A stretch of 64,000 nucleotides of DNA from positions 1 through 64,000 of the IMG/VR virus record IMGVR_UViG_3300028833_006001; one strand, written 5' to 3'. Shown piece after piece: positions 11,977 through 59,894 of this stretch. The DNA is from a virus (lineage: Duplodnaviria; Heunggongvirae; Uroviricota; Caudoviricetes). Position 1 is the stretch's first letter. Each line of letters starts with the position of its first letter. The position numbers and the translations under genes are program-made. A model generated the notes under the pieces. It worked only from the letters and a program-made list of their open reading frames with translations, made no database searches and was not told the origin of the DNA.

Positions 11977-12504
11977 TTATTCTTCGTCAAATTCAAGTAA
12001 TTCAGAATTATATTTTATAGTTACTGGATATTTATTAATATCACTTGAATCCAATTTTGTAAATATCTTATTTAAAATATTCTTATTATCATCTTGATTC
12101 TTATTGAGTATTTCAAATTCATCAAAAAGAATAATATATTTTAAATTTGTAAGTTTAAACATATTATTTTTGGTATCTTTTGATTTATCATCATAATAAG
12201 AATCCCATTTTAAATTGATTTGTTCATCTTCATAGTCATCAGATGAATGTTCAAACTTTTCATATTCAAAATATGCATCTGAAATATTATCAACATTCTT
12301 ACCAAGAAGATTTTGATATTTCTTATTTTCTGATGGAAGTTCTTTTAGAAGAACATCTCCGATATATATTTGGATATCACTTTCAGAATAAGTTTCAGGA
12401 GCTGTCAATGTAAATACTTTTGGTAATACATCAAATACAACCTTTACATTTCTTACTATGATTTGTTGATATTCTTCTTTAATATATTCAATTAAACTTT
12501 TCAT
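11977..12504 (-). CDS. hypothetical protein with short-form leader (MKSLIEYIKEE)
   Basis: The N-terminus matches the M-K-x-(I/L)-x-x-Y-I-x-E pattern shared with the array genes further along. Confidence 0.45.
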   Translation of the reverse strand: MKSLIEYIKEEYQQIIVRNVKVVFDVLPKVFTLTAPETYSESDIQIYIGDVLLKELPSENKKYQNLLGKNVDNISDAYFEYEKFEHSSDDYEDEQINLKWDSYYDDKSKDTKNNMFKLTNLKYIILFDEFEILNKNQDDNKNILNKIFTKLDSSDINKYPVTIKYNSELLEFDEE

Positions 12505-12521
12505 TAGTTAACATTATATAT

Positions 12522-13751
12522 TTATTCATCTCCATCAATATCATTAAGACCATTAAATTCGTTAATAAGTCTTGAATTTACATAGATTGGTTCATCATTA
12601 TTATCATATTCATCTTCATCATGCTTAGCTTCTTGCATAAGTTCGAAAATATCTACAAACTTTGCAAACATCTTTTTATCTTTCTTGATGTAGTTGATAA
12701 CTTTAGCTATTTCAGCAGTAATTGAAGATGGTGAGCTATAACCATATTTCTTGGCCATTTCTTTACCAGAAAGTTTCTTTGCTCCATTTTCAACACCAAA
12801 TCCAAAGTGATTCTTGAATATATCCATTGTCTTAGGACCAAACTTTTCTTCAAGTTGTTTAAGAATCTGATCCCAAAGGTCATCAATTTCCTTACGGTCA
12901 ATATTCTTACCAGGATTTTCCATTCCACCTACAAGGTCAAATAATGTCTTTCCTTCTTCTCCATCCTTTCCACCAAGATGACGGTCTCCAGATACTGAGT
13001 TAGATTTAGCAATAAATCCCTTCTCATCCTTTTCTTTCTTCTGACGAGAAATAGGAATACGTACAAGATGAGAGAAATTCTTAGTTGCTTCAAGAATTTC
13101 TACACGAATCATCTGAGCAGCATACTGAAGGAAAGTATATGACTTATACTTAGAAATATCAATTTCTTCTCCAGTTAATTCTTCCTTCTTTTTCTGCTTA
13201 TTACTCTTCTTGCCATATGTGTCCATAGCATAAACAAGTCCCTTCATACCGAATGCATAAATATCATCTCTGTCAAATGAAGTCTTGCCTAACCAAGAAT
13301 TAGTAATCTTATGTACAAGTGGTTCATATTTCTTTACAATAGCAGTTCTACCTTTTTCTGTTGTAAGGTCCATGATTACTTCATCAGGAGAAGCTGTCTT
13401 ATCAAGAATTGAATCAAACTGTTCTTTAGTCATAAAAGTAGGAATTTCAAGAATTCTTCCACTTGAATAAATCTTAGTAATATTACTATATAAAGATTTA
13501 AGAGAACTATCCTTTGGAATTCCCTTGTTATAGAAATCTACAAGAGCATTATCATTATCTCCTGTTGAAAGATCCTTGATATATGTCTTGTTATTTTCAA
13601 TTAACCATTTACATACTTCTTTAGCTTCAGCTGAAATAAATTTATCAGCTATTTCAAGATATTTATTTAGCTGATCTACAGTAAGATAGTTTATTGAATC
13701 CTCTTGGATTTCAATTGTTTTTGATTCGAATAATTGCGAAAATTTTTTCAT
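12522..13751 (-). CDS. sigma-70-family RNA polymerase sigma factor (regions 2 and 4) with N-terminal extension
   Basis: DDIYAFGMKGLVYAMDTY and YTFLQYAAQMIRVEILEA resemble region 2.2-2.4 (DLIQEG.IGL..A..KFD / FSTYA.WWIR.AI). The C-terminal LSGKEMAKKYGYSSPSSITAEIAKVINYIKK resembles the region 4.2 helix-turn-helix. Confidence 0.6.
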   Translation of the reverse strand: MKKFSQLFESKTIEIQEDSINYLTVDQLNKYLEIADKFISAEAKEVCKWLIENNKTYIKDLSTGDNDNALVDFYNKGIPKDSSLKSLYSNITKIYSSGRILEIPTFMTKEQFDSILDKTASPDEVIMDLTTEKGRTAIVKKYEPLVHKITNSWLGKTSFDRDDIYAFGMKGLVYAMDTYGKKSNKQKKKEELTGEEIDISKYKSYTFLQYAAQMIRVEILEATKNFSHLVRIPISRQKKEKDEKGFIAKSNSVSGDRHLGGKDGEEGKTLFDLVGGMENPGKNIDRKEIDDLWDQILKQLEEKFGPKTMDIFKNHFGFGVENGAKKLSGKEMAKKYGYSSPSSITAEIAKVINYIKKDKKMFAKFVDIFELMQEAKHDEDEYDNNDEPIYVNSRLINEFNGLNDIDGDE

Positions 13752-23997: not shown

Positions 23998-24100
23998 TTT
24001 TTATATTTGTAATATATTTATTATTTTTTTCAATTAATAGAATTAAACATAACTTCTATAATTTAATTAAAAATAAAACTTTTTAGTCGTAAAGATTTAA

Positions 24101-24198: not shown

Positions 24199-25932
24199 TT
24201 AGATAAGGCCAAATTCTGAACCTACTGTGAATGTGAAGTACTGTGTTTCTGGGAAGAAACCAGCATCAACAATAGCATATCTTGAGTTAACAAGCATCTT
24301 AGGAGCCATTGTACCTTCAGCTGTGATAGATACTGTATCAGCAAGAATGTAAGGCATAAAGATTACACCAGGTTCGTTACCGTTACCCTTTCTACCAACG
24401 CAAACTCTTGTATCATCCCAATCCATATAAGGATCAACATAAACTTTAAGACCTGCGATTGTACCACTCATGAATAAGTTCTGTGAACCATCCTGTGCGA
24501 AGTTGTTTACCATAGGAGCAACTACATAACCACTAACATCCTGAAGAGCTGTAGCAACCTGAGCATTTGTAACAACCCATGTTGGTCTACCTCTACGTCC
24601 AGTTACCTGGATAAGGTTAGCAGCAGCAAGAAGTTTAGAACCAATTCTTCTCTGACGAGTGTGAAGATTTTCAGCACTTGTATTAACTTCTGCATTCTTG
24701 ATTGTTCCCCAATCACCCTTATGTTCAACACCATAAACATCCTTGAATGTCTTGATTGGCTGAGCAGCCATTGTGCTATCAGATGTACCCATCCAAAGGT
24801 TAAGGTCTACACCCTGATAAACTTTCTGATGAATAGCGTTAGTTACACCAAGAGCAAATACATGTTCAAGAATTCTAGCGTTAATTGACTGAGTAATTTC
24901 GTTCTGCATAGCTTCCATAACTTTAGCAACAGCATCAACACCATAAAGAGGAAGATCCTGGAGTTGCTGTCTTGTTACAGTACCTGTAACTTCATATGAA
25001 CCCATCTGAACCCATTTGCTGAATAATCTAAGACCAAGTACATTACCTGTACCAGTTTCATTTTCAGCTCTTGTCATGCTTCTCTTTTCACCTGTTGCGA
25101 AGTTTGCGAAACCGTCAACGAAATCAACCATTGTCTGAGCGAAATCAACTGATGTTACATTACCAGTAGCAACACCGCTAACAACTGCAGGATTTACACC
25201 ATCGAAAAGATCTGCAACAGCCTTATTAACATCACCAGCTTTACATTCTTTAACAGCAACGATAAGACCGCTATCCATTCTACCAAGCTGCTTGAATTCA
25301 CCCTTAAATGTTACACCATTACCAACAATAGTAATTGCTCTTTCAGCTGCTGGAGCTTCTGCCTTTGCTCTAAGAGCTGCAGCATCACCGTCGAAGCCAA
25401 GGAATTTAACATAAAGAGGTTTGTTTTCTGCGCCTTCACCAACACCGTCAAGACCAGCAACTTCGTTTCTTCTACCCATCTTACCACCAGCATATGGGAA
25501 GTCCATATAAGTTAACATTGCCCAAGGACCTTTTGCAGGAATAACTGGAACAAGTTCAAGACCGATTGTAAGAAGTGCTACGTTAAGAGCCATAGGAAGA
25601 GTTGATACAGGAATATCACCACTACCAACTGCTTGTTTGAAGAAGTCACCAGTACCACCCATTGGAACCTGTCCGTTAGGAGCATAACCAGGTGCCATAG
25701 GATTACCCATACCAAGAGTATTAAGAGGGGTTGCATAAAGAGGTGAAACACCCTGTGCAGGAGCTACCTGACCACCGATATTAGCGCCACCAACACCAAG
25801 CATAGATTCATGAATTTCATGAATAGCTGCATACTGTGATACCCAGTTTAACTTCTCATTATCTGTAACGTTAAAGTTTTCCTTTAACATTTTTGTCCAC
25901 ATCTGTGTACCATTCTGTTCGTTAATAAACAT
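24199..25932 (-). CDS. major capsid protein (T4 gp23-like)
   Basis: VVTNAQVATALQDVSGY matches T4 IIASRNVVNVLASVDTG. GTIAGLKVYVDPYMDWDDTRVCVGRKGNGNEPGVIFMPYILAD matches GVLGGKYRVYIDQYAKQDYFTVGYKGPNEMDAGIYYAPYVAL. The N-terminal propeptide has an I-H-E|S site resembling the T4 L-T-E|AEIGG cleavage site. Confidence 0.88.
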   Translation of the reverse strand: MFINEQNGTQMWTKMLKENFNVTDNEKLNWVSQYAAIHEIHESMLGVGGANIGGQVAPAQGVSPLYATPLNTLGMGNPMAPGYAPNGQVPMGGTGDFFKQAVGSGDIPVSTLPMALNVALLTIGLELVPVIPAKGPWAMLTYMDFPYAGGKMGRRNEVAGLDGVGEGAENKPLYVKFLGFDGDAAALRAKAEAPAAERAITIVGNGVTFKGEFKQLGRMDSGLIVAVKECKAGDVNKAVADLFDGVNPAVVSGVATGNVTSVDFAQTMVDFVDGFANFATGEKRSMTRAENETGTGNVLGLRLFSKWVQMGSYEVTGTVTRQQLQDLPLYGVDAVAKVMEAMQNEITQSINARILEHVFALGVTNAIHQKVYQGVDLNLWMGTSDSTMAAQPIKTFKDVYGVEHKGDWGTIKNAEVNTSAENLHTRQRRIGSKLLAAANLIQVTGRRGRPTWVVTNAQVATALQDVSGYVVAPMVNNFAQDGSQNLFMSGTIAGLKVYVDPYMDWDDTRVCVGRKGNGNEPGVIFMPYILADTVSITAEGTMAPKMLVNSRYAIVDAGFFPETQYFTFTVGSEFGLI

Positions 25933-26011
25933 TGTAATTTATAAAAATTTATTTGTTATTTTTTGTAATTATATTCTTGTTATTTATCTTATGATAAATG
26001 TTTCGTTTATT

Positions 26012-26032
26012 TACTTTATTAAAAATAAATAA
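26012..26032. promoter_or_regulatory. conserved 21-nt AT box TACTTTATTAAAAATAAATAA upstream of the major capsid gene
   Basis: An identical 21-mer recurs at 27839..27859 upstream of the protease gene. Near-copies lie at 27899..27919, 28650..28672 and 61180..61198. Confidence 0.4.
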
Positions 26033-26050
26033 TTTTAAATGAGATAGAAA

Positions 26051-27802
26051 TTATGCTCTTCTGAGTCTCATCATCTGAGCATATACAGAGTTGTAATGAT
26101 TTTCAAGGATGTCTTTTGGTTCTTCAACTTGCTGAGGAGCTTTTGTAGATGCAAAGTCTACACTTTCCCAGAATTTCTGAAGAACACCTTCTTTCTTAAA
26201 ATCATATGCTTTAGAACTTCTAACTATTTCTTCTTGTCTTTCTTCTGAAAGAGCATTCCAAGATGGCTGATATTCAGCAGGCATATTTTCAACTACGTAT
26301 ACACCAGCGAACTTATCTTGTGCTTTCTGTTCTTTTACAAGTTGTGAAATAGCTTCATCCTTATTTTCAAGGCTTTCGATAAGAGCATCAATATCTGAAA
26401 GTTTAGCACTCTTCTGGTTTTCCATAAAAGCGTTTACATTTTCATTTACCTTTGCTTCAATATTTGCATTGTTTTCAGGAGTATATTCTTCATTAATCCA
26501 TCCTTCGATAACTGGAGCAAATTCTTCACAAACCCAATTCTGTACTTCTGGGGCGAATTCTTCTGTAATCCAATTCTGTAATTCAGGAGAGAATTCTTCT
26601 GTAATCCAATTCTGTAATTCAGGAGAGAATTCTTCTGTAATCCAGTTTTGTACTTCAGGAGCAAATTCTTCACAAACCCAGTTCTGTACTTCAGGAGCAA
26701 ATTCTTCACATACCCAATTCTGAACTTCTGGAGCGAATTCTTCGCATACCCAATTCTGAATTGTTTCAGAGAAGTTTTCAACTACCCAAGTCTGAATATC
26801 TGAATTAATACTTTCTGAAAGTTCTGCCTTGAAATCTTTAGCAAATTCTTCAGTTACCCAATTTTCAATCTTTTCATAGTTAGGAGTTTCAAATCCATTA
26901 ACCTTTTCAGTAACACCATTAAGTGCTTCATTAAGTTTATTGATTTCTTTATCCTTAGCTGTTAATGATTCTTGAGCAACATGAAGTTCAGCTTCTAAAC
27001 TAGTTACCTTTTCAGTAAGTTTATCAATTGCTTCTTTTAAATCATTCATTGTAGTATTTTGACTATTTTTGTTATTTTCATCTTCTTCAGATGTATCTTT
27101 TTCCTTTTCATCTTTATCTTCTTCTTTGTTATCTTCTTTATTATCATTATTTTCATCATCATGATTTTCTTCAGAAGATTTATCAGAAGATTTGTCATTG
27201 TTTTCATCGTCAAGTAAATCATCAGATTCATCTTCATTTATGATAGCCCAAATCTGATTACCATCTTCAGCAGATTCATTTAAACATTCAAGTGTTTGAT
27301 TAGCTTTAAGATTTAATTTAGCTTGTGAGAAACCAGGTGTACCAACTAAGTCATATGTCTTAATTGTTGAAAGTGTTACGTTTCCTGCTTCATCAATAGA
27401 TCCAGCACCTCTTGAAGATATATAAAGAGGAAGACCTCCTTTTACAATTGCTTGTGCATTTTTACCATTTGTTGTATCAAGTAAAAGAATTGTACCAGTA
27501 ACTGTACCATCTTCATTCATTTCAATAGACTCAATCTTATGTGATACACGATTAAGATCAATATTCATAGTATTAGGATGTTCAAGTTCTCCCATAAGGC
27601 CTTCAGTTGCGATAACCTTCTGAAGATTTTCAACCATCATTCCATAATTTTCTTTTGAATATATACGTCTATTTTCGTTTTTAATGCCGCAAACACCAAA
27701 TACACCAGTCATACGAACTTCATTAGTATTCTGACTTTCTTGGATCTGCAATCCAGTTGTAGGTCCTAAAGTTTCAAATACCATGCATTTTTTATTTGCC
27801 AT
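26051..27802 (-). CDS. prohead core protease (T4 gp21-like) fused to an acidic scaffolding region
   Basis: The N-terminal about 170 aa carry GELEHP and YISSRGAGS, matching the gp21/U9 protease His and Ser motifs. The remaining about 400 aa are D/E/N-rich coiled-coil with tandem 12-aa repeats. Confidence 0.8.
   Translation of the reverse strand: MANKKCMVFETLGPTTGLQIQESQNTNEVRMTGVFGVCGIKNENRRIYSKENYGMMVENLQKVIATEGLMGELEHPNTMNIDLNRVSHKIESIEMNEDGTVTGTILLLDTTNGKNAQAIVKGGLPLYISSRGAGSIDEAGNVTLSTIKTYDLVGTPGFSQAKLNLKANQTLECLNESAEDGNQIWAIINEDESDDLLDDENNDKSSDKSSEENHDDENNDNKEDNKEEDKDEKEKDTSEEDENNKNSQNTTMNDLKEAIDKLTEKVTSLEAELHVAQESLTAKDKEINKLNEALNGVTEKVNGFETPNYEKIENWVTEEFAKDFKAELSESINSDIQTWVVENFSETIQNWVCEEFAPEVQNWVCEEFAPEVQNWVCEEFAPEVQNWITEEFSPELQNWITEEFSPELQNWITEEFAPEVQNWVCEEFAPVIEGWINEEYTPENNANIEAKVNENVNAFMENQKSAKLSDIDALIESLENKDEAISQLVKEQKAQDKFAGVYVVENMPAEYQPSWNALSEERQEEIVRSSKAYDFKKEGVLQKFWESVDFASTKAPQQVEEPKDILENHYNSVYAQMMRLRRA
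26505..26765 (-). repeat. in-frame 36-nt tandem repeats (about 7 copies plus degenerate flanks) encoding QNW(V/I)(C/T)EEF(A/S)PE(V/L)
   Basis: The repeated DNA unit GAATTCTTC(T/A)(G/C)(T/A)AA(T/C)CCAATTCTGTA(C/A)TTC... is visible directly in the sequence. Spurious ORFs appear in other frames on both strands. Confidence 0.85.
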
Positions 27803-27923: not shown

Positions 27924-28586
27924 CTAACTAGCTATTTCATTAGCAATTATATCTTCAGCAAGAACTTCTCCAGTTTCTACATCAACTATATTGTTTTTAT
28001 CATCAAAAGATTCTACTTGAATTTTATTATTTGATGTAGAATTATTAAGTGATTCAATAAATTCTTTAGAACCACGAACAATAATAGAACCATCTTCAAG
28101 ATTTGTTTCTTTAGGTTTTTCTGCAAATGTTTTATCTGCATTATCTTGCATTTCTCTAAAGATTGATTCAACACTAGATATTACATCATTAAGTTGTTTT
28201 TGAATATCTAACATTGATTTTTGTAATGCTGTAAGACTTTGGTAAAGAGCACCTTTACCAGCATTCATAGTAATACTTTGTATAAGTGTATCTTGCGCTT
28301 TTTCATTTACGTTCAACATCTTGAGAAGCATACGAATTTGATCCATTTCCTGAGAAATTTTATTAGGAATATATGGATGTTCGTCTATATACTTTTGATC
28401 AAAATAATAATTAGAAAGTCTTTCTGTTATCTGTTGAGCCTTAGCTTTTGCTTGACCTTCTACTTCTTCTAAATCAATTACTAATGTTGGGGTTTCAAGA
28501 ACATCATCAGGAGAATCATATTCAGGTTCTTCTGGGCTTCTTAAGAAAAGATCATTAAGAGCATCTTTATCTTCATTTGTAACCAT
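27924..28586 (-). CDS. acidic coiled-coil prohead core or scaffold-like protein (220 aa)
   Basis: Position immediately upstream of the protease gene. Acidic, Q/E-rich helical composition typical of scaffold or core proteins. Confidence 0.4.
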   Translation of the reverse strand: MVTNEDKDALNDLFLRSPEEPEYDSPDDVLETPTLVIDLEEVEGQAKAKAQQITERLSNYYFDQKYIDEHPYIPNKISQEMDQIRMLLKMLNVNEKAQDTLIQSITMNAGKGALYQSLTALQKSMLDIQKQLNDVISSVESIFREMQDNADKTFAEKPKETNLEDGSIIVRGSKEFIESLNNSTSNNKIQVESFDDKNNIVDVETGEVLAEDIIANEIAS

Positions 28587-28930: not shown

Positions 28931-29977
28931 TTATGATACATACCAAGAAGGTGGATTTTTTTCTAAAGGACATTTTTTAAATATATCCCTTGACCATTTT
29001 AATATTTTTATTTTTTTATTTATATTCCAAGATGATATATCTCCATCAAATTTAGAATTATAAAACATTTTTATCATATTAGTAACATTACTTACATCCC
29101 ATTTTGATATATCTTTATTAAAAATTGAGTTACAAAACATATACTCCATATTAACAACTTTACTTACATCCCAAGACGATATATCACTATTAAAGTTAGA
29201 ATAAGAAAACATATAACTCATATCAATAACATTACTTACATCCCATTTTGATATATCTTTATTAAAAATTGATCTAAAAAACATATAATCCATATCAGTA
29301 ACTTTACTTACATCCCATTTTGATATATCTTTATTAAATTTAGACTGTGTAAACATAAAACTCATATTTTTAACTTTACTTACATCCCAAGAAGATATAT
29401 CTCTATTAAATGATGAATAAATAAACATCTGTGACATATTAATAACATTACTTACATCCCAAGACGATATGTCACTATTAAAGTTAGAATTAGAAAACAT
29501 ATAACTCATATTAGTAACATTACTTACATCCCAAGATGATATATCTCCATTAAATTTAGATTGTGCAAACATAACATGCATATCAGTAACATTACTTACA
29601 TCCCAAGATGATATATCACCATTAAATTCAGAACTAGAAAACATTCTACGCATATTAGTAACATTACTTACATCCCAATCTGATATATCACCATTAAATT
29701 CAGAAGATTCAAACATACTATCCATATTAGTAACATTACTTACATTCCAAGATGATATATTTCCATTGAATTTTGAATTTTTAAATATATCAGTCATATC
29801 AGTAACATTACTTACATCAATATCATTTAAATCAGCCTTATTTCCTCTTTCTTCAATAAGTTTATCTACTAAAGATTTAAGTTCTTCTCTATCTTTAGGA
29901 TGATAATGATATACAGGTTTATTAATATCCTTATTTAAATGTAATTTCTCTATTATATAATTATTTAAATTTTTCAT
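28931..29977 (-). CDS. leader-family protein with DUF285/BspA-type leucine-rich repeats (about 10 repeats of D(I/V)SxWDVSNVTNMxxMF)
   Basis: The true start is probably the internal Met giving MKNLNNYIIEKLHLNKD; the ORF track extends it to 30043. Then come HPKDREELKSLVDKLIEERGNKADLNDIDVSNVTDM and tandem WDVSNVTNM repeats. Confidence 0.7.
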   Translation of the reverse strand: MKNLNNYIIEKLHLNKDINKPVYHYHPKDREELKSLVDKLIEERGNKADLNDIDVSNVTDMTDIFKNSKFNGNISSWNVSNVTNMDSMFESSEFNGDISDWDVSNVTNMRRMFSSSEFNGDISSWDVSNVTDMHVMFAQSKFNGDISSWDVSNVTNMSYMFSNSNFNSDISSWDVSNVINMSQMFIYSSFNRDISSWDVSKVKNMSFMFTQSKFNKDISKWDVSKVTDMDYMFFRSIFNKDISKWDVSNVIDMSYMFSYSNFNSDISSWDVSKVVNMEYMFCNSIFNKDISKWDVSNVTNMIKMFYNSKFDGDISSWNINKKIKILKWSRDIFKKCPLEKNPPSWYVS

Positions 29978-29978
29978 A

Positions 29979-40259: not shown

Positions 40260-40910
40260 TCAATCTCTTTTTATTTTTTTATACCATTTTGGTTTTTTAA
40301 TTTTATCACATCCATAAAACATTTGTGTAAAAGGTCCTTCATGTTTTAAATTATCAAAATTTGTTTTTAAATTCTTGCATCCCCAAAACATATATTGTAT
40401 GTCAGCATATTTATTAATTTTCCACTGTGATAAATCAATATCTAAATTTTCACAATACATAAACATACTTTTAAAATTAGTACATGAACTTATATCCCAA
40501 TTTTCTAAACCTTCACCGATAAAGTTTTTACAACCTAAAAACATTGCATACATTTCTTTTACATTAGATACATCCCAAGAAGATAAATCACAGTCAAAAT
40601 AATCACATTCTCTAAACATTTGTTCCATATTTTTTACATTAGAAACATCCCAAGAAGATACATCTATAGATTCAATTTCAAGATTTTTATATTTCTTAAG
40701 ATCATAAAATATATCTGACATATCAGTTATTTCACTTGTATCTATACAATTAAGATTAAGATTAGGACCTCTTTCTTTATATAACTGTATGATTATTTCT
40801 TTTAATTCACTAGAATTTTTAGGGAAATAATCTTTTTTAATATTTTCCTTTTTTATATGTTCATTATCTAATTTTAATTTCTCATTAATATAATTTATTA
40901 TTTCTATCAT
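40260..40910 (-). CDS. leader-family (variant MIEIINYINEKLKLDNEHIK) DUF285/BspA-type LRR protein
   Basis: Repeats DVSSWDVSNVKNMEQMF and DLSSWDVSNVKEMYAMF. Confidence 0.65.
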   Translation of the reverse strand: MIEIINYINEKLKLDNEHIKKENIKKDYFPKNSSELKEIIIQLYKERGPNLNLNCIDTSEITDMSDIFYDLKKYKNLEIESIDVSSWDVSNVKNMEQMFRECDYFDCDLSSWDVSNVKEMYAMFLGCKNFIGEGLENWDISSCTNFKSMFMYCENLDIDLSQWKINKYADIQYMFWGCKNLKTNFDNLKHEGPFTQMFYGCDKIKKPKWYKKIKRD

Positions 40911-40911
40911 A

Positions 40912-41208
40912 TTAATTTTGTATATATTTCATTATAAATTCTGCTATTTGTTCTCTAATTTTTTGTTGTTTATCTTCTTGTAAAAATTCATCATCATCTG
41001 GTTGATATGCTAAATATTCTTTTGAATATTCTTGAGATAAACAATCAGAAAATCTTTTTAATCGTTTTGAATTATTAAGACCATTTAATAATTCTACAAT
41101 ATTATCTTTTGTAAGATGTTTACTTGCTTTAAAAATATCTAAAACAATAGTACACCAAAGTGGAATCTTATCTAATTCCTCATTTATATATTCATTAAAA
41201 TTTTTCAT
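40912..41208 (-). CDS. small protein with short-form leader (MKNFNEYINEEL)
   Basis: Leader pattern. Confidence 0.45.
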   Translation of the reverse strand: MKNFNEYINEELDKIPLWCTIVLDIFKASKHLTKDNIVELLNGLNNSKRLKRFSDCLSQEYSKEYLAYQPDDDEFLQEDKQQKIREQIAEFIMKYIQN

Positions 41209-41666
41209 TTTTCTATTAAAATTAAATGATTATAATCTGTTGTTAAATTTTCCATATATAAACCATATTTATTACCATATAGTCTAATAATATTTGTTTC
41301 TTTTAATAAATCTTTACGTCTTTTTAATTTATTACCAACAAAATAATCAACTTTATTTTCATCAATTATTATATCAATATCAATATCTGAGTTGTTTTCT
41401 AAATTATAATTTCTATTTACATAATACTTTAATTTCTTATTTCTAATATCATTATTTATTACCCATTCAGTTATATAAGTTGTAAAAATATTTTGAGGTA
41501 AATCATCAATTGATGTTGATTTTTTTATTTTATCTAATACTATTTTATTAGTAGTATCATCATTAAAAAATTTAACTATATTAATAACTAAATCATCAAT
41601 ATTTGATAATTTTGTATTTTGATTAAGATGAAGTTTCTCAATTATATATTTATTTATATTTTTCAT
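41205..41666 (-). CDS. leader-family protein (MKNINKYIIEKLHLNQNTK)
   Basis: Conserved leader. Confidence 0.6.
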   Translation of the reverse strand: MKNINKYIIEKLHLNQNTKLSNIDDLVINIVKFFNDDTTNKIVLDKIKKSTSIDDLPQNIFTTYITEWVINNDIRNKKLKYYVNRNYNLENNSDIDIDIIIDENKVDYFVGNKLKRRKDLLKETNIIRLYGNKYGLYMENLTTDYNHLILIEK

Positions 41667-42028
41667 TAAAATTTTAATCTTTTAAATTTATAAGGATTAA
41701 TGTCTCCATCATTTAATTTTATAATTAAATCTTGTAAAGAATTAATTTTATTATCAATTTCAAAACATTGTACATCTGAATAATCTTCATCAAAATTATC
41801 TAAAAATTCTTTAGCATCATCTTTTTTTATAACATATATATATTGTTGAATTGCTTTAGAATATACTTTATTTAATTTATATTTTTCTTCAAATTCAGCA
41901 TTTAAAGTTATATAATTCTTTTCAAATAATATGTTTTTAAATATTATACAATATTCATCAATATTATCTGTCTTAATATTTTTGTTAAGATGTAATTTTT
42001 CAGTTATATATGTTGTTAATTCTTTCAT
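41666..42028 (-). CDS. leader-family protein (MKELTTYITEKLHLNKNIK)
   Basis: Conserved leader. Confidence 0.6.
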   Translation of the reverse strand: MKELTTYITEKLHLNKNIKTDNIDEYCIIFKNILFEKNYITLNAEFEEKYKLNKVYSKAIQQYIYVIKKDDAKEFLDNFDEDYSDVQCFEIDNKINSLQDLIIKLNDGDINPYKFKRLKF

Positions 42029-50461: not shown

Positions 50462-50707
50462 TTATTCAAAAATTTTCCACATCGTATATTTTAAATCGAT
50501 ATTATGAATATACTCAGTAAATTCTTTATCATAAATAGGATAACTATCATTAGAAAGATATAAAGAATGAATGAAAATGCAATCAAAATTCATTTCTATT
50601 TCATCAATAATTGAATTAACCATATCAATGTTGTTTCTTTTCCAGAAGAAATACATTGCATTAATTTCATTATTGAATTCATTCAGAAATTTTATACCAG
50701 TTTTCAT
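50462..50707 (-). CDS. hypothetical protein (81 aa)
   Basis: ORF only. Confidence 0.3.
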   Translation of the reverse strand: MKTGIKFLNEFNNEINAMYFFWKRNNIDMVNSIIDEIEMNFDCIFIHSLYLSNDSYPIYDKEFTEYIHNIDLKYTMWKIFE

Positions 50708-50754
50708 AATGTTGTTTATTAAATTACATTAATAATATAGAAATAAAATAAAAA

Positions 50755-50783
50755 AATTCAAAGATTTTATTTCTTTGAATTTT
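50755..50783 (-). terminator. rho-independent terminator
   Basis: AATTCAAAG-ATTTTATTT-CTTTGAATT followed by TTTTTTTATTTT on the minus strand. Confidence 0.6.
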
Positions 50784-50789
50784 AATTTA

Positions 50790-51248
50790 TTAATATACTC
50801 CTTTAAAATAATATATATTTAATTTACCAGGTTTTTTAACTAATAAATTATTTGATGGATATTTTTGTCCTAAGGAACTTTCATCGGAATATATTTCTAT
50901 ACCATTTTTATTATATAATTCTTTAAATCTTTTTTTATCTTGTTTATATAATCTAATAGCATCTTCATCTTCAATAACACTTAATGATACTCCATCTGGT
51001 AAATTAGCATGTTCTGCACAAAATGTCATAATATCTTTTTTAATTTTAAATGTTTTAATCCATGTTTCTAATACATCAGCAATATCATAATTATCTTTAA
51101 AATTCAATATATATAACATTAAATCAACAAATTTATTTTCATGTAATTTAAATTTAGTAGTAAATTGTTCTGGATCTTTTACTTTTGTTTCTTTATTAAG
51201 ATGAAGTTTTTCTAATATATATTGACTTAAATTATTCATATTATTCAA
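50790..51248 (-). CDS. leader-family protein (MNNLSQYILEKLHLNKETK)
   Basis: Conserved leader. The start may be the fourth Met. Confidence 0.6.
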   Translation of the reverse strand: MNNMNNLSQYILEKLHLNKETKVKDPEQFTTKFKLHENKFVDLMLYILNFKDNYDIADVLETWIKTFKIKKDIMTFCAEHANLPDGVSLSVIEDEDAIRLYKQDKKRFKELYNKNGIEIYSDESSLGQKYPSNNLLVKKPGKLNIYYFKGVY

Positions 51249-51831
51249 ATATTTCTTTAATTATATTTATTAATTTATTCCATGCTTGAGTAGTAAATCT
51301 AGATTTATTAATTGCTTCATTAAAATCATCTTTATAATATTTAAATTCTTTAATACCATTTAAAACTTTTGTTAAAACATCATCAGTTAATTCATATATA
51401 GGATGATTACCATATAAACCACCACTTTTATATTTTTCTGATTTATATTCTAATTCATACTTATAATATGAAGCTACACTAAATGATTTTTTACCATTAC
51501 TATAAAATAATCTAATATATATTAAAACTTTATCAGATGGTAAATTACCCATATTATTTTTAGCTGGTTTAGTAATATCAAATTTTAAATCAATATGAGA
51601 AGTATTATTTGGATTTTTAAAATAAAGATAATAATTACAATATTTATATCCATTATCATTAATTGAAGAAGAAGTTTCTTTTTCAAAATTATCACTATTA
51701 TCTTTATATCCTATATCTGAAAATGCTTTATCTAATTCTTTTATTATATAATCAAAATCATTTATATTTTCTATTTCTGTATCTTTATTAAGATGAAGTT
51801 TTTCTATTATATATTGTTTAAGACTTTCCAT
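51241..51831 (-). CDS. leader-family protein (MESLKQYIIEKLHLNKDTE)
   Basis: Conserved leader. Confidence 0.6.
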   Translation of the reverse strand: MESLKQYIIEKLHLNKDTEIENINDFDYIIKELDKAFSDIGYKDNSDNFEKETSSSINDNGYKYCNYYLYFKNPNNTSHIDLKFDITKPAKNNMGNLPSDKVLIYIRLFYSNGKKSFSVASYYKYELEYKSEKYKSGGLYGNHPIYELTDDVLTKVLNGIKEFKYYKDDFNEAINKSRFTTQAWNKLINIIKEIFE

Positions 51832-52297
51832 TTTTTAACCAATCCAATAGTTTTTTAAGCCATTCTTCAAGAGTAATATTATCTCTTTTTAATCCTATTT
51901 GTTTTTCAATTCTAAACTTACCATAAGGACATTCCCATTCTAACACAGGTTTTTGTAATATTTCTTCAATTAAATTAATTGCATCTTCCTTTAATATTAC
52001 ATATCCCCAACTAATATTTTTTTTAATATTATCTTCCCATTCAGATGAAGCAAAGATATATTTATATTTATCATTTAATGTATGATTTAATACAGTAAAT
52101 TCTTCTGAATGATTATGTAATTTAATTATATTTTTATCATAATCAGAAATTTCATAATAATAAAAAGATATATAATTAGGATTATTAGAAAGAGCACTAT
52201 GTGAAATTAGCAATACTGGTTCTTCTTCTAATAAATTAACTTTAGTATCTTTATTAAGATGAAGTTTCTCTATTATATAATTATTTATTTGCTTCAT
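51818..52297 (-). CDS. leader-family protein (MKQINNYIIEKLHLNKDTK)
   Basis: Conserved leader. Confidence 0.6.
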   Translation of the reverse strand: MKQINNYIIEKLHLNKDTKVNLLEEEPVLLISHSALSNNPNYISFYYYEISDYDKNIIKLHNHSEEFTVLNHTLNDKYKYIFASSEWEDNIKKNISWGYVILKEDAINLIEEILQKPVLEWECPYGKFRIEKQIGLKRDNITLEEWLKKLLDWLKNGKS

Positions 52298-52713
52298 ATG
52301 ATTTTATTTTGAAGTATTAATTTATACTCTCTTTCAACATTTTCTTTAGAATCAGATGAATGCATTGCATTTCTCATTTCATCTATTCCCCATTCTTTAC
52401 GGACTTTATTCTTAATAGTTTTTAAATCTTTAATTGGATCTTTACAATCCTTTCTTAACATATATGATATAGAATCTCCAGAAGCCATATAAGTACATAA
52501 TTCATTATAAAATGGTTTATCTTTTAAACCAATATAAAGTTCTTTTGCTTCATCAATTGATAAAGTTCTTTTAACTTTTTGGACAATTTGCCAATTTTTA
52601 TTTTTTAATAGATTATCAAAATCATATTCATGATCTAAAAAATCTGGTTTAAGAATTGCAAAACCATTTACTTCTGATAAAGATTCTTTTATATATTGAA
52701 CTATTGTTTTCAT
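52294..52713 (-). CDS. nucleoside-diphosphate-kinase-like protein with short-form leader ([12 protein letters not shown])
   Basis: FAILKPDFL matches the NDK [34 protein letters not shown] matches [32 protein letters not shown] matches NIIHGSDS and retains the catalytic His. Confidence 0.55.
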   Translation of the reverse strand: [139 protein letters not shown]

Positions 52714-52721
52714 ATTATTTA

Positions 52722-53255
52722 TTATAACTCAATTGGAGTAATATATTTATTTTCTTCATCTGTTTTTAATAAATTAAGATTTTCTGGTTCTTCTTCTCCT
52801 CTAACAATATAATCATAACATATATTATATCCATCATTAGTCAATGCATATATATAATATATTCCTCTTGATCCAGAATTAAGAGCATGTATTTCAAGAT
52901 GTCCACCTTTAATTAATACATTATATCCTAAATCTTTACCAGTAATAATTTTATCAGTAATTTTATCTAAATCATCACTAAAATTATAAATAACATCATC
53001 AGTAATATCTTTTTTAATAGAACCTAATGAATCAAATTGAAATGCAATAAATCCTGTATAGTTTTTATTTATTGTATCAAGTTCAGATTTACAATCATCC
53101 CAAAATATATCTCTATCTCCTTCTTCTTCAACATCTGCATCGTCATCATAAAGATATACTTCATCATTAGGAGATATATTATCAATATTAAATTGATGAT
53201 GTATATCTTTATTAAGATGAAGTTTTTCTATTATATATTGACTTAAATTATTCAT
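52722..53255 (-). CDS. leader-family protein (MNNLSQYIIEKLHLNKDIHH)
   Basis: The start is taken at the internal Met that restores the leader (the ORF track extends to 53321). It overlaps the upstream gene stop by 8 nt. Confidence 0.55.
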   Translation of the reverse strand: MNNLSQYIIEKLHLNKDIHHQFNIDNISPNDEVYLYDDDADVEEEGDRDIFWDDCKSELDTINKNYTGFIAFQFDSLGSIKKDITDDVIYNFSDDLDKITDKIITGKDLGYNVLIKGGHLEIHALNSGSRGIYYIYALTNDGYNICYDYIVRGEEEPENLNLLKTDEENKYITPIEL

Positions 53256-53991
53256 GATACCATTTTGGTGGATTTTTTTGTAAAGGACATTTATTAAACA
53301 TAAATTCCATATTTTTAACATTACTTACATCCCATTTAGATATATCTACATTAAATGGAGAATATATAAACATTTCACCCATATTTTTAACATTACTTAC
53401 ATCCCATTTAGATATATCTCTATTAAATTTAGAACTAGAAAACATTCTATTCATATTAGTAACATTACTTACATCCCATTTAGATATATCTCCATTGAAT
53501 TCTGATTTTCTAAACATATCATTCATATCAGTAACATTACTTACATTCCATTTACTTATATCTTCATTAAATTTAGAATCAGCAAACATATAAATCATAT
53601 TAGTAACATTACTTACATTCCATTTACTTATATCTCCATTAAATTTAGAAGTATAAAACATCATAGACATATCAGTAACATTACTTACATTCCATGATGA
53701 TATATCTCCATTGAATTTTGAATCTCTAAACATACTTTCCATATTAGTAACATTACTTACATCCCATTCACCTATATTTCCATTAAATTTAGATTTATAG
53801 AACATATAAGACATATCTTTAACATTACTTACATCAATATCATTTAAATCAGCATTATTTCCTCTTTTTTCAATAAGTTTTTCTATTAAAGATTTAAGCT
53901 CATCCTTATCTTTAGGATGATAATTATATAATGTTTTTATATTCTTATTTAAATGAAGTTTTTCTATTATATATGTTTTAAATTCTTTCAT
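53248..53991 (-). CDS. leader-family DUF285/BspA-type LRR protein
   Basis: MKEFKTYIIEKLHLNKNIK, then HPKDKDELKSLIEKLIEKRGNNADLNDIDVSNVKDM and about 7 WNVSNVT(D/N)M repeats. Paralogue of 28931..29977. Confidence 0.7.
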   Translation of the reverse strand: MKEFKTYIIEKLHLNKNIKTLYNYHPKDKDELKSLIEKLIEKRGNNADLNDIDVSNVKDMSYMFYKSKFNGNIGEWDVSNVTNMESMFRDSKFNGDISSWNVSNVTDMSMMFYTSKFNGDISKWNVSNVTNMIYMFADSKFNEDISKWNVSNVTDMNDMFRKSEFNGDISKWDVSNVTNMNRMFSSSKFNRDISKWDVSNVKNMGEMFIYSPFNVDISKWDVSNVKNMEFMFNKCPLQKNPPKWYHE

Positions 53992-54474: not shown

Positions 54475-54476
54475 AA

Positions 54477-58432: not shown

Positions 58433-58448
58433 TTTAATATATATAATT

Positions 58449-59892: not shown

Positions 59893-59894
59893 AA

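What the first reader, a model, noticed from the sequence alone, without database searches (positions are those of the whole stretch)
24199..27802. T4-type head-maturation logic: the gp21-like protease, the capsid propeptide site and the leader sites all fit (I/L)-x-E
- The protease ORF carries GELEHP and SSRGAGS blocks matching the T4 gp21 (Peptidase U9/S77) His and Ser motifs.
- The capsid protein has about 43 residues before I-H-E|SMLGVGGANIGG. This parallels T4 gp23 cleavage at L-T-E|AEIGGDHG.
- The array leaders all carry Y-I-x-E.
- These three independent sequence features point to the same maturation protease specificity. Together they support calling the leader a cleavable capsid-targeting sequence.
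Basis: partly seen in the sequence, partly recalled or inferred. Interest (0 to 1): 0.7.

Follow-up and report, generated by a model that had tools for sequence, protein, structure and literature searches.

The report
T4-style capsid-loading tags in huge phage
This uncultured giant phage has a T4-type head protease and capsid protein, and about 30 unrelated proteins in the window start with a 10-residue tag resembling T4's cleavable capsid-targeting sequence, so it probably loads an unusually large protein cargo into its head.

Summary
All three sequence features are real and well above chance.

- **Protease (26051-27802, minus strand).** It is a T4 gp21 / Peptidase S77 protease. It matches Pfam above its cut-off, His75 and Ser129 align with T4 His85 and Ser140, and the AlphaFold model matches PDB 5JBL (TM 0.77-0.82). 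A roughly 400-residue scaffold-like tail is fused to it.
- **Capsid protein (24199-25932, minus strand).** It belongs to the gp23 family. The conserved 42-residue N-terminus ends in I-H-E-I-H-E|S, the next Glu is residue 126, and 21 close and 4 distant relatives keep a hydrophobic-x-Glu motif at this boundary.
- **Leaders.** 29 of 71 called genes have [LIVMF]-x-E ending exactly at residue 10 (1.6 expected). The informative positions are 2, 4, 7, 8 and 10, which include the four mapped for the T4 tag MKTYQEFIAE. Selection acts on the protein, and 34 tagged proteins have 31 unrelated bodies.
- **Outside support.** In the cultured relative Sphingomonas phage PAU, published N-terminal sequencing puts the mature capsid protein start at or next to L-M-E64. 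Four of the five PAU proteins annotated "internal capsid protein" carry the same kind of tag.

The T4-type reading is supported, but no cleavage or packaging has been observed for this phage. Two things do not fit the simple T4 model. The heptad KLHLNKD after the predicted cut is more constrained than the tag core, and tags also sit on enzymes such as a nucleoside diphosphate kinase. I rate it a new variant of a known kind.

The parts
26051..27802 (-). Prohead protease fused to a scaffold-like tail (583 aa)
   Evidence: Pfam Peptidase_S77, E 8.8e-10, 38.8 bits against a cut-off of 27. PHROG 207 'head maturation protease', E 1.2e-40. Tenacibaculum phages PTm1 and pT24 have the same fused layout, annotated 'prohead core scaffolding protein and protease' and 'prohead core scaffold'.
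27293..27802 (-). Protease domain, residues 1-170. Catalytic His75 is the codon at 27578-27580 and Ser129 the codon at 27416-27418
   Evidence: Alignment with T4 gp21. Both residues are invariant in 30 homologues. AlphaFold model pLDDT 86. Foldseek top hit is 5JBL (T4 gp21), E 2.4e-10, TM 0.77-0.82, followed by weak herpesvirus protease hits.
27737..27781 (-). Candidate N-terminal self-cleavage sites in the protease: V-F-E10|T-L-G and I-Q-E22|S
   Evidence: E10, T11, G13, E22 and S23 are identical columns in the alignment with T4 gp21 (L-I-E9|T-W-G and M-L-E25|S). The first motif is kept in all 20 clade relatives and most of the 30 homologues. The model places residues 6-14 in a beta-strand, so cleavage here is uncertain.
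26483..26866 (-). Tandem 12-residue repeats in the protease tail, [VI]-Q-x-W-[VI]-x-E-E-[FY]-[AS]-P-E. There are 11 W-[VI]-x-E motifs in this ORF, 10 of them in this stretch
   Evidence: Across 77 repeats from 9 relatives, W is present in 77, [VI] in 74 and E in 75. The core aromatic-aliphatic-x-Glu is the same as the leader core Y-I-x-E. pT24 and PTm1 keep the Trp but not the Glu at the cleavage position.
24199..25932 (-). Major capsid protein, T4 gp23 family (577 aa)
   Evidence: Pfam Gp23, E 3.3e-29. Profile comparison with T4 gp23 gives probability 92.8% over the C-terminal half. 31-39% identical to the capsid proteins of PAU, pT24, PTm1, Lak phages and huge-phage genomes.
25807..25932 (-). 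Predicted capsid propeptide, residues 1-42, ending A-I-H-E39-I-H-E42|S-M-L-G
   Evidence: The propeptide and its ending motif are conserved in 21 IMG/VR relatives. A variant reads T-H-A-M-F-E|A, which keeps only the second site. A hypervariable stretch follows, then the conserved block GV(S/G)P(L/I)YATP. Distant relatives read AAIKE|, CAITE|, LTINE| and HELYE|.
27924..28586 (-). 220-aa acidic protein directly upstream of the protease; possible scaffold or core protein
   Evidence: Inferred from position only. No Pfam or PHROG hit. By eye it contains roughly ten [LIVMF]-x-E motifs.
28931..33122 (-). Array of 8 genes with the full leader M-x-x-L/I-N-x-Y-I-x-E|K-L-H-L-N-K-D. Gene starts at 29977, 30431, 30948, 31331, 31798, 32297, 32691, 33122
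   Evidence: Upstream DNA is not conserved. Leader codons 7-17 have synonymous divergence 0.50 against non-synonymous 0.11.
34205..34555 (-). Gene with a shortened leader (MKTLLEKLKLDKN)
38577..39023 (-). Gene with the full leader (MKELNLYIIEKLHLNKD)
40260..42028 (-). Three genes with the full or variant leader (starts 40910, 41666, 42028; the first is a DUF285 repeat protein) and one with the short 10-residue tag (start 41208, MKNFNEYINE)
50462..53991 (-). Five genes with the full leader (starts 51239, 51831, 52297, 53255, 53991), a nucleoside diphosphate kinase with the short tag MKTIVQYIKE|S (52294-52713), and MKTGIKFLNE (50462-50707)
   Evidence: The Pfam NDK domain begins at residue 18, so the tag is an N-terminal addition to the enzyme.
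54199..54713 (-). Two small genes with the short tag (MKDIKNYIVE, MKNLKEYLNE)
57986..60299 (-). Two genes with the full leader (starts 58432, 60299) and one variant short tag (58682-59701, MKTILEYIND-NLYAE)
34568..39666 (-). Genes with the short tag or a near variant: 94 aa (MKDIKTYLINE), 300 aa (MKTIVEYIHTILE|S), 408 aa (MKRFIQYIQE|S) and a 213-aa HAD-type hydrolase (MKSLLQYINE|A). The block also holds a 502-aa protein with an internal tag-like junction, SEYIKE|SLIVEGG
11977..13751 (-). Two genes with the short tag outside the main block: 175 aa (MKSLIEYIKE|E) and 409 aa (MKKFSQLFE9|S, the PAU form of the tag)
26016..26029 (-). One of 12 copies of the promoter-like motif TTTATTTTTAWWWA. Others are at 24064, 27843, 39691, 45538, 49872, 54904, 57938, 61184 and 279 (minus strand), and 3521 and 7017 (plus strand)
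   Evidence: 12 exact matches against 0.87 expected. All lie between genes and point towards the downstream gene. They precede the sheath, capsid, protease and adaptor-like genes, and also the transcription units that hold the leader arrays.

Best explanation
**What it is.** The window comes from an uncultured huge myophage. Its closest relatives are Sphingomonas phage PAU, Tenacibaculum phages pT24 and PTm1, Lak megaphages and metagenomic huge phages, at 31-39% capsid protein identity.

**Shown**
- The head module encodes a T4 gp21-type serine protease (His75, Ser129) fused to a scaffold-like tail, followed by a gp23-family capsid protein.
- About 30 proteins with unrelated bodies begin with a 10-residue tag, M-K-x-(L/I/F)-x-x-Y-(I/L)-x-E.
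- The tag is kept by selection on the protein, not on the DNA.

**Inferred, by analogy with T4 and with support from PAU**
- The protease is built into the prohead and cuts after Glu in hydrophobic-x-Glu motifs.
- It removes the 42-residue capsid propeptide after E42, and possibly also after E39.
- It trims itself and its repeat-rich tail.
- It clips the 10-residue tag from the tagged proteins.
- Before cleavage, the tag binds the proteins to the scaffolding core. They are therefore enclosed in the head and later injected with the DNA.

The genes with the longer leader add a conserved heptad, K-L-H-L-N-K-D. This would remain as the new N-terminus after cleavage. Its role is unknown.
For: **Protease**
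- Pfam and PHROG matches.
- Catalytic residues align with T4 gp21.
- The predicted fold matches 5JBL with TM 0.77-0.82.
- The N-terminal V-F-E10|T-L-G and I-Q-E22|S align with T4 L-I-E9|T-W-G and M-L-E25|S.

**Capsid protein**
- Pfam Gp23.
- A conserved boundary motif is followed by a hypervariable linker.
- No Glu occurs between residues 43 and 125.
- N-terminal sequencing of the PAU capsid protein gives 585 to 520 residues (PMC5646251), next to L-M-E64.

**Tag**
- 29 of 71 genes have [LIVMF]-x-E ending at residue 10, P about 3e-29.
- Besides position 2, the informative positions are 4, 7, 8 and 10, the four mapped for the T4 tag (PMC9026906).
- T4 IPII and IPIII begin MKTYQEFIAE|A and IPI ends its leader in I-T-E19|A.
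- In variants that lack E10, a hydrophobic-x-Glu follows within 1-5 residues.
- 34 tagged proteins fall into 31 unrelated body clusters.
- Synonymous divergence is 0.50 against non-synonymous 0.11.
- The tag is added in front of otherwise ordinary NDK and HAD domains.

**Relatives**
- Related contigs carry the same tags upstream of their head modules.
- PAU has about 20 genes starting MK(T/S)(L/I)xxL(Y/F)E, most of them near its portal, protease and capsid genes.
- Four of five PAU proteins annotated "internal capsid protein" carry this tag (Fisher P 8e-5).

**Timing**
- The arrays share strand, tight gene spacing and a promoter-like motif with the capsid, protease, sheath and adaptor-like genes.
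Against: - No cleavage or packaging has been measured for this phage.
- (I/L)-x-E is a short, weak motif.
- Residues 11-17 of the longer leader (KLHLNKD) are more constrained than residues 7-10: non-synonymous divergence 0.09 against 0.14. The T4 model does not predict this, because in T4 only the first 10 residues matter.
- Tagged proteins include a nucleoside diphosphate kinase, a HAD-type hydrolase and a protein related to the C-terminal domain of a cytidylyltransferase fusion. I know of no case where such enzymes are packaged in a phage head. A dNMP kinase in the same block has no tag.
- The PAU capsid site backed by sequencing aligns about 20 residues downstream of E42, where this protein has no Glu.
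- The T4 and window capsid N-termini cannot be aligned.
- The PAU "internal capsid protein" labels are database annotation. I found no published data behind them.
- The protease N-terminal motif lies in a predicted beta-strand of the fold.
Confidence: 0.65

Rival explanations
1. The leader is a capsid or assembly targeting tag, but it is not cut after E10. It either stays on the protein or is removed elsewhere, for example after the whole 17-residue unit. The matching (I/L)-x-E would then be a coincidence of a binding motif.
For: Residues 11-17 are the most constrained part of the longer leader. E-K-L-H-L is invariant. PAU gp199 carries a similar E-L-K-H-I-N-K-D after its tag, so a unit that spans E10 looks functional as a whole.
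Against: In the short-tag genes, conservation stops exactly at E10. Variants without E10 regain a hydrophobic-x-Glu a few residues later (MKTIVEYIHTILE, MKDIKTYLINE). PAU leaders have two tandem sites, L-Y-E9 and L-N-E14. In T4, positions 8 and 10 are the processing determinants (PMC9026906).
Confidence: 0.12
2. The leader has nothing to do with the capsid. It would be a shared N-terminal module for some other purpose, such as localisation to another phage structure, regulated turnover or control of translation.
For: Tags sit on metabolic-type enzymes (NDK, HAD hydrolase) that are not known head components. About 40% of genes in the window carry a tag, which is a very large fraction for packaged proteins.
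Against: The resemblance to the experimentally defined T4 tag holds position by position (PMC9026906). PAU proteins annotated as internal capsid proteins are enriched for the tag. In PAU, none of the replication or nucleotide-metabolism genes with a functional annotation carries it. Upstream DNA is not conserved and synonymous sites are close to saturated, so a DNA- or mRNA-level signal is unlikely. The leader is not hydrophobic enough to be a secretion signal.
Confidence: 0.15
3. The shared N-termini are left over from recent gene duplication or gene conversion, or are a composition artefact of an AT-rich genome, with no function of their own.
For: The genes lie in tandem arrays. M-K starts are common in AT-rich genomes.
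Against: Bodies are unrelated in 31 of 34 cases. Synonymous divergence in the leader (0.50) is as high as between unrelated bodies (0.41), while non-synonymous divergence is 0.11 against 0.64. The enrichment is specific to position 10. The tag type is shared with PAU, whose capsid protein is only about 35% identical.
Confidence: 0.03

Closest known systems
Phage T4 head maturation: gp21 protease, gp23/gp24 propeptides, and the capsid targeting sequence of internal proteins IPI, IPII and IPIII
   Same: - Same protease family, catalytic residues and predicted fold.
- Same capsid protein family.
- Cleavage motif is hydrophobic-x-Glu: T4 gp23 L-T-E65|A, gp24 L-R-E10|S, IPII/IPIII I-A-E10|A, IPI I-T-E19|A.
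- The tag has the same 10-residue length and shares T4's mapped positions 4, 7, 8 and 10.
- The tag sits on proteins with unrelated bodies.
   Different: - The protease is only 26% identical and is fused to a roughly 400-residue scaffold-like tail with 8-10 tandem W-[VI]-x-E repeats. T4 has separate gp21 and gp22.
- The propeptide is 42 residues rather than 65, and it cannot be aligned with T4's.
- About 30 tagged genes lie in 64 kb, whereas T4 has only a handful in its whole genome.
- The longer leader adds a conserved heptad after the cut.
- The tagged proteins include enzymes and DUF285 repeat proteins.
Sphingomonas phage PAU head module (gp142, gp154, gp199 and gp270 'internal capsid proteins'; gp151 protease; gp156 capsid protein)
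   Same: - Closest cultured relative (about 35% capsid protein identity, 42% in the protease domain).
- About 20 genes start MK(T/S)(L/I)xxL(Y/F)E, often followed by (A/S/N)KLNE(A/S).
- The capsid protein is known to be processed, by N-terminal sequencing.
- One PAU leader continues ...E-L-K-H-I-N-K-D, like the K-L-H-L-N-K-D here.
   Different: - The PAU tag is 9 residues (L-Y-E9), often with a second site (L-N-E14).
- The PAU protease and scaffold are separate genes.
- No body homology was found between PAU and window tagged proteins.
- I found no paper describing the PAU tags.
phiKZ, 201phi2-1 and SPN3US giant phages: gp175/gp245 proteases and processed head and ejection proteins
   Same: They have a gp21-related protease that cuts after Glu at a short motif. 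Many head and ejected proteins are processed, and propeptides hold redundant sites (PMC5694885, PMC9026906).
   Different: The motif is (S/A/G)-x-E or A-x-E rather than (I/L)-x-E. Most propeptides are long (often over 100 residues) and are not a shared 10-residue tag. It is a different phage lineage.
Variable internal-protein genes of T-even phages
   Same: A conserved tag is attached to divergent proteins. The T4 review links this variability to an arms race with host restriction systems (PMC9026906, section 3.1).
   Different: Far smaller in scale. Here there are arrays of up to 8 consecutive genes, at least 20 genes with the longer leader, and further short-tag genes on enzymes.

Membership tests
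Peptidase S77 (T4 gp21 prohead protease) | Sequence match to the family model above its curated cut-off | tested here: met
   PF03420, 38.8 bits against a cut-off of 27, E 8.8e-10. PHROG 207, E 1.2e-40. Nearly all of the 98 database homologues carry PF03420.
Peptidase S77 (T4 gp21 prohead protease) | Catalytic His and Ser at the positions of T4 His85 and Ser140 | tested here: met
   His75 (GELEHP) and Ser129 (SSRG) align with T4 GELNHP and VSSRG. Both are invariant in 30 homologues.
Peptidase S77 (T4 gp21 prohead protease) | gp21 / herpesvirus-protease fold | tested here: met
   AlphaFold model pLDDT 86. Foldseek hit to 5JBL at E 2.4e-10, TM 0.77-0.82, rmsd about 2.8 A. Weaker hits to pseudorabies, VZV and HCMV proteases.
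Peptidase S77 (T4 gp21 prohead protease) | Cuts after Glu in (L/I)-x-E inside the prohead | not testable with these tools
   Only candidate sites can be listed.
T4 gp23-family major capsid protein with a cleaved N-terminal propeptide | Sequence match to the Gp23 family | tested here: met
   PF07068, E 3.3e-29. Profile comparison with T4 gp23 gives 92.8% probability over the C-terminal half. Direct sequence and profile searches of PDB sequences found nothing.
T4 gp23-family major capsid protein with a cleaved N-terminal propeptide | Conserved hydrophobic-x-Glu at the end of a conserved N-terminal segment | tested here: met
   Kept in 21 close and 4 distant relatives. E39 is conserved in at least 90% of sequences in the alignment.
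T4 gp23-family major capsid protein with a cleaved N-terminal propeptide | The propeptide is actually removed in the mature head | not testable with these tools
   Indirect only. The PAU capsid protein goes from 585 to 520 residues by N-terminal sequencing (PMC5646251), next to L-M-E64. That site aligns downstream of E42.
T4-type capsid targeting sequence | N-terminal tag of about 10 residues ending in Glu, with hydrophobic or aromatic residues at positions 4 and 7 and aliphatic-x-Glu at 8-10 | tested here: met
   An unbiased N-terminal profile of 71 genes peaks at positions 2, 4, 7, 8 and 10. 29 genes have the motif ending at residue 10. T4 reference sequences are and the mapping in PMC9026906.
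T4-type capsid targeting sequence | Attached to proteins that are otherwise unrelated | tested here: met
   34 tagged proteins fall into 31 BLAST clusters. The tag precedes intact NDK, HAD and DUF285 domains.
T4-type capsid targeting sequence | The first 10 residues are sufficient, with no conserved sequence needed beyond the cut | tested here: not met
   This holds for the short-tag genes. The 18-20 genes with the longer leader have an invariant K-L-H-L after E10, under stronger constraint than the tag core.
T4-type capsid targeting sequence | Tagged proteins are found inside the capsid and the tag is removed by the protease | not testable with these tools
   Indirect only. Four of five PAU proteins annotated 'internal capsid protein' carry the homologous tag. 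This is annotation, not published data that I could find.
T4-type capsid targeting sequence | Expressed together with head assembly genes | tested here: inconclusive
   Same strand, overlapping or tightly spaced genes, and a shared promoter-like motif with the capsid, protease and sheath genes. The same units also hold a dNMP kinase and a lysozyme. There are no expression data.

The most novel reading that the evidence does not exclude
This huge-phage lineage has turned the T4-type 10-residue capsid tag into a general loading system. It would put dozens of unrelated proteins into the head for co-injection, including DUF285 repeat proteins, a nucleoside diphosphate kinase and a HAD-type hydrolase. 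The longer leader would be two-part, with a cleavable tag followed by a retained K-L-H-L-N-K-D N-terminus that has its own function. The 8-10 tandem W-[VI]-x-E repeats in the protease tail may be the docking or competing sites for the tag.
Probability: 0.35. Interest if true: 0.75.

Novelty: new variant of a known kind. Interest (0 to 1): 0.55.

Why it matters
**If true**
- The T4 capsid-targeting principle, so far worked out mainly in T-even phages, would extend to a distant clade of huge phages (PAU, Tenacibaculum phages, Lak-related and metagenomic phages).
- It would be used there on a much larger scale.
- That would give a simple sequence rule for predicting which of the many unknown huge-phage genes encode packaged, injected proteins. 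Such proteins are likely early-acting effectors against host defences.
- It would also suggest a natural tag for loading foreign proteins into large capsids.

**How it can be tested**
PAU can be grown in the laboratory, so the prediction can be checked directly. The retained heptad and the tags on enzymes are the parts a specialist would not have expected.

**What is ordinary**
The protease and capsid protein themselves are ordinary new members of known families.

Tried and rejected
- **Source of the window.** Megablast of the head module against 50,697 phage records found nothing, so the phage is not deposited there.
- **Aligning the capsid site with T4.** Sequence and profile searches of the capsid protein against PDB sequences gave no hit. 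Profile comparison with T4 gp23 aligned only the C-terminal halves. The two cleavage sites can therefore be compared only by analogy.
- **Leader in the literature.** Searching papers for the leader strings found nothing. Searches on capsid targeting combined with jumbo or huge phages, PAU and PTm1 found no description of these tags. The MA9V-1 paper has only SDS-PAGE data.
- **Amphipathic helix.** The idea that the longer leader is an amphipathic helix was not supported. The hydrophobic moment was 0.96, and 29% of shuffles were equal or higher.
- **Single-sequence structure model.** The AlphaFold model of the protease from one sequence was unusable (pLDDT 31). It was replaced by a model from a 30-sequence alignment.
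- **Leader in the large protein database.** A 40-residue profile found only 14 short fragments among 5.8 billion proteins, so the EKLHLNK form is confined to a narrow clade.
- **Shared cargo with PAU.** No homology was found between the bodies of window and PAU tagged proteins.
- **Two functional guesses dropped.** My impressions that the 409-aa tagged protein is sigma-like and that the 353-aa protein is ligase-like got no support from Pfam, PHROG or PDB searches.
- **Tail repeats as conserved cut sites.** Reading the W-repeats in the protease tail purely as conserved cleavage sites is weakened, because pT24 and PTm1 do not keep the Glu at the cleavage position.

Full report
**Context**

The window is AT-rich, with 19-38% GC. 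On the minus strand it carries a myophage structural block:
- a 220-aa acidic protein (27924-28586)
- a 583-aa protease ORF (26051-27802)
- a 577-aa capsid protein (24199-25932)
- a tail sheath (21004-23997)
- a tail tube (20330-20914)

It is not in the phage record collection. By tblastn the closest phages are a 462-kb uncultured huge phage (LR756500), Sphingomonas phage PAU, Tenacibaculum phages pT24, PTm1 and PTm5, Lak megaphages and Chryseobacterium phages, at 31-39% capsid protein identity. IMG/VR holds 21 closer relatives (62-93% capsid protein identity) on contigs of up to 435 kb. The identical capsid protein occurs in two ENA assemblies and one JGI metagenome.

**Protease**

- The ORF matches Pfam Peptidase_S77 above its curated cut-off (38.8 against 27 bits). 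It also matches PHROG 207, "head maturation protease", at E 1.2e-40 over residues 20-170.
- A direct search of PDB sequences finds T4 gp21 (5JBL).
- Aligned with the native T4 gp21 sequence, GELEHP (His75) pairs with GELNHP (His85). The first Ser of SSRGAGS (Ser129) pairs with the first Ser of VSSRGLGS (Ser140).
- Both residues are invariant in 30 database homologues, while the second Ser varies.
- A single-sequence model was useless. A model built from the 30-sequence alignment has pLDDT 86. Its only strong PDB matches are the three 5JBL chains (E 2.4e-10, TM 0.77-0.82), followed by weak herpesvirus protease hits.

Two further parallels with T4 appeared:
- The N-terminus MANKKCMVFE10|TLGP...LQIQE22|S aligns column for column with T4 MNEPQLLIE9|TWGQP...PMLE25|S.
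- The first motif is kept in all 20 clade relatives and in most of the 30 homologues.
- A review of T4 head assembly notes that L-I-E9 fits the gp21 cleavage logo and may be a self-cleavage site (PMC9026906).
- In the model, however, residues 6-14 form a beta-strand of the fold. Cleavage there is uncertain.

**Protease tail**

Residues 171-583 hold an acidic linker, a stretch that looks like coiled coil, and a tandem array of 12-residue repeats.
- Across 77 repeats from nine relatives the consensus is [VI]-Q-x-W-[VI]-x-E-E-[FY]-[AS]-P-E. Trp is present in 77, [VI] in 74 and Glu in 75.
- The core aromatic-aliphatic-x-Glu is the same as the leader core.
- PTm1 and pT24 have the same fused protease-scaffold layout and Trp-containing repeats, but they do not keep the Glu at the cleavage position.
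- The repeats may therefore be a structural or binding motif that also happens to be cleavable in this clade.
- PAU has a separate protease and scaffold.

**Capsid protein**

- Pfam Gp23 matches at E 3.3e-29.
- The N-terminus is MFINEQNGTQMWTKMLKENFNVTDNEKLNWVSQYAAIHEIHE42|SMLGVGG. That is 42 residues before the proposed cut, with two overlapping I-H-E motifs.
- All 21 close relatives keep ...W(V/I)SxYAx(I/T)H(E/A)(I/M)(H/Y/F)E|(S/A)xLG. A stretch that varies in sequence and length follows, and then the conserved block GV(S/G)P(L/I)YATPxNTxGxGN.
- One subclade reads T-H-A-M-F-E|A, which keeps only the second motif. That favours E42 as the cut site.
- The next Glu is residue 126, so E42 is the last possible site for a Glu-specific protease before the folded core.
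- Distant relatives have AAIKE49| (PAU), CAITE| (pT24), LTINE| (PTm1) and HELYE| (LR756500) at the homologous position. E39 is conserved in at least 90% of the sequences in the alignment.

Published data for PAU bear on this.
- Table 1 of Hua et al. [quoted passage not shown]
- The PAU sequence reads ...RALME64|NYQISG. Cutting after E64 leaves 521 residues and 56.08 kDa. The measured N-terminus is therefore at, or one residue from, a hydrophobic-x-Glu site.
- This site, and the matching I-L-E|S-Y of pT24 and I-N-E|S-Y of PTm1, aligns about 20 residues downstream of window E42. That is just before the conserved GVSP block, where the window clade has no Glu.
- The PAU result therefore supports Glu-directed processing of capsid proteins in this group. 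It does not confirm the exact window site.
- T4 gp23 (F-L-T-E65|AEIGGDHG) cannot be aligned with this N-terminus. "Parallels T4" is an analogy, not an alignment.

**Leaders**

- Twenty genes between 28.9 and 60.3 kb begin with M-x-x-(L/I)-N-x-Y-I-(I/L)-E-K-L-H-L-N-K-D or a close variant.
- In the 18 full-length copies, M1, E10, K11, L12, H13 and L14 are invariant. Y-I is present in 16; the exceptions read I-L-L-E and F-L-T-E.
- Upstream DNA is not conserved and the codons vary synonymously (TTA/CTT/CTC, GAA/GAG, AAA/AAG).
- For leader codons 7-17 the synonymous divergence is 0.50 and the non-synonymous 0.11. For the adjacent unrelated body codons the values are 0.41 and 0.64. Selection therefore acts on the peptide, not on the DNA.
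- Unexpectedly, residues 11-17 are more constrained than residues 7-10 (non-synonymous 0.09 against 0.14).

A second, broader class emerged. At least ten more genes start with only the 10-residue unit:
- MKSLIEYIKE|E
- MKRFIQYIQE|S
- MKSLLQYINE|A
- MKNFNEYINE|E
- MKTIVQYIKE|S
- MKDIKNYIVE|F
- MKNLKEYLNE|G
- MKTGIKFLNE|F

In near variants a hydrophobic-x-Glu follows slightly later: MKTIVEYIHTILE13|S, MKDIKTYLINE11|S and MKTILEYINDNLYAE15|L.

Statistics on a simple gene call of 71 genes:
- [LIVMF]-x-E ends exactly at residue 10 in 29 genes, against 1.6 expected (P about 3e-29).
- Without the EKLHL class it is still 10 of 51 (P about 2e-7).
- The unbiased N-terminal profile is most informative at positions 7 (Tyr), 4 (Leu/Ile/Phe), 8 (Ile/Leu), 10 (Glu) and 2 (Lys).

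**Comparison with T4**

- T4 IPII and IPIII begin MKTYQEFIAE|A, and IPI begins MKTFKEFTSTTTPVSTITE|A.
- The T4 review states that the first 10 residues of IPIII suffice for packaging. Targeting depends mainly on residues 4 and 7 and processing on residues 8 and 10, and Asp at position 10 blocks processing but not targeting (PMC9026906).
- The window tags match this in length and at those four positions. MKNFNEYINE, for example, has the same pattern as MKTYQEFIAE.
- T4 gp24 (MAKINELLRE10|S) and gp67 (MEGLIE6|A) fit the same logic.

**Cargo**

- The 34 tagged proteins fall into 31 unrelated BLAST clusters.
- The only larger family is three DUF285 repeat proteins.
- The short tag also precedes a nucleoside diphosphate kinase (Pfam domain from residue 18), a HAD-type hydrolase (domain from residue 22) and a 300-aa protein related to the C-terminal domain of a cytidylyltransferase fusion.
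- That 502-aa fusion protein carries an internal tag-like junction...SEYIKE|SLIVEGGHSVEN. An orthologue on a related contig starts MKSLLQFINE|ALIVEGGKAVE.
- A dNMP kinase in the same block has no tag.

**Relatives**

- The exact Y-I-x-E-K-L-H-L-N-K coding pattern occurs in 17 IMG/VR stretches from a handful of contigs.
- A profile search of 5.8 billion proteins found only 14 short fragments.
- Variants such as FITEKLKITSN and IIVEKLKISGN occur on one related contig. The short tag is common upstream of the head module in several relatives, for example ten consecutive genes on one contig.

In PAU:
- About 20 of 294 called genes begin MK(T/S/G)(L/I)xxL(Y/F)E9, often followed by (A/S/N)KLNE14(A/S). 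Fourteen of the 20 lie within about 15 kb of the portal, protease and capsid genes.
- [LIVMF]-x-E peaks at residue 9 (26 genes), with a second peak at residue 14.
- The GenBank record labels five proteins "internal capsid protein". Four of them (gp142, gp154, gp199 and gp270) carry the tag (Fisher P 8e-5).
- None of the PAU replication or nucleotide-metabolism genes with a functional annotation carries it.
- gp199 continues ...YE|AFVELKHINKD, which recalls the K-L-H-L-N-K-D found here.
- No body homology links PAU and window cargo.
- I found no paper describing these tags.

**Expression context**

- The motif TTTATTTTTAWWWA occurs 12 times against 0.87 expected. It always lies between genes and points towards the downstream gene.
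- It precedes the sheath, capsid, protease and adaptor-like genes. It also precedes the units that contain the leader arrays, several times directly after a hairpin and T-run.
- Genes within the arrays overlap or abut.
- This fits co-expression with head genes, which a capsid tag would require. The same units also contain a lysozyme and a dNMP kinase, and there are no expression data.

**Conclusion**

- The T4-type interpretation is the best explanation (confidence about 0.65). The main rivals are a tag that is not cut at E10 (0.12) and a function unrelated to the capsid (0.15).
- The protease and capsid protein are ordinary new members of known families.
- What goes beyond T4 is the scale of tagging (about 40% of genes in this window), the conserved heptad that would be retained after the cut, the tags on enzymes, and the tag-like tandem repeats in the protease tail.
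- I rate it a new variant of a known kind, of moderate interest. It can be tested directly in the culturable relative PAU.

Noticed in passing
window 279-292, 24064-24077, 26016-26029, 27843-27856, 39691-39704, 45538-45551, 49872-49885, 54904-54917, 57938-57951, 61184-61197 (minus strand); 3521-3534, 7017-7030 (plus strand): The promoter-like motif TTTATTTTTAWWWA occurs 12 times against 0.87 expected. It is always intergenic and points towards the downstream gene. Several copies directly follow a hairpin and T-run, which looks like terminator-promoter pairs. It is probably the promoter for the virion genes.
   Followed up: partly
window 26483-26866 (minus strand), protease residues 313-440: The protease tail holds tandem 12-residue repeats, [VI]-Q-x-W-[VI]-x-E-E-[FY]-[AS]-P-E, in 8-10 copies in every clade relative. 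The W-[VI]-x-E core mimics the leader core Y-I-x-E. The repeats could be self-destruct sites, or docking or competing sites for the tags.
   Followed up: partly
window 35771-37279 (minus strand), compared with 34872-35774 and L004:7159-8073: A 502-aa protein joins a cytidylyltransferase-like domain to a domain homologous to the neighbouring 300-aa tagged protein. The junction carries an internal tag-like sequence, SEYIKE|SLIVEGG, which suggests an internal protease site or a recent gene fusion.
   Followed up: partly
window 28931-29977, 40260-40910, 53248-53991 (minus strand): Three DUF285 repeat proteins (a Pfam family first named in Mycoplasma) carry the longer leader followed by a shared YNYHPKDxxELKSLIEKL segment. 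Database fragments from related phages show the same combination.
   Followed up: partly
window 52294-52713 and 39025-39666 (minus strand): A nucleoside diphosphate kinase and a HAD-type hydrolase each carry the short 10-residue tag in front of an otherwise complete enzyme domain. A dNMP kinase (46596-47687) in the same block does not.
   Followed up: partly
protease residue 88 (window 27539-27541, minus strand): His88, in the motif N-V-S-H-K, is invariant in 30 homologues and is present in PAU, pT24 and PTm1, but the aligned T4 gp21 residue is Ala. It may be a clade-specific extra active-site or structural residue.
   Followed up: no
L040 (PAU 108936-122654) and L042 (PTm1), genes between the portal and the protease: PAU gp148 and PTm1 ORF-299 share a D-G-H-H motif, which from memory resembles ParB-like nucleases. 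They sit between the portal and protease genes. The window has an unrelated 220-aa acidic protein at that position.
   Followed up: no
window 49934-50455 (minus strand): A phage lysozyme (Pfam E 1.6e-23) has a hydrophobic, signal-peptide-like N-terminus (MKKIINLLFFIVFSISAFA). It may be a secreted or signal-anchored endolysin.
   Followed up: no
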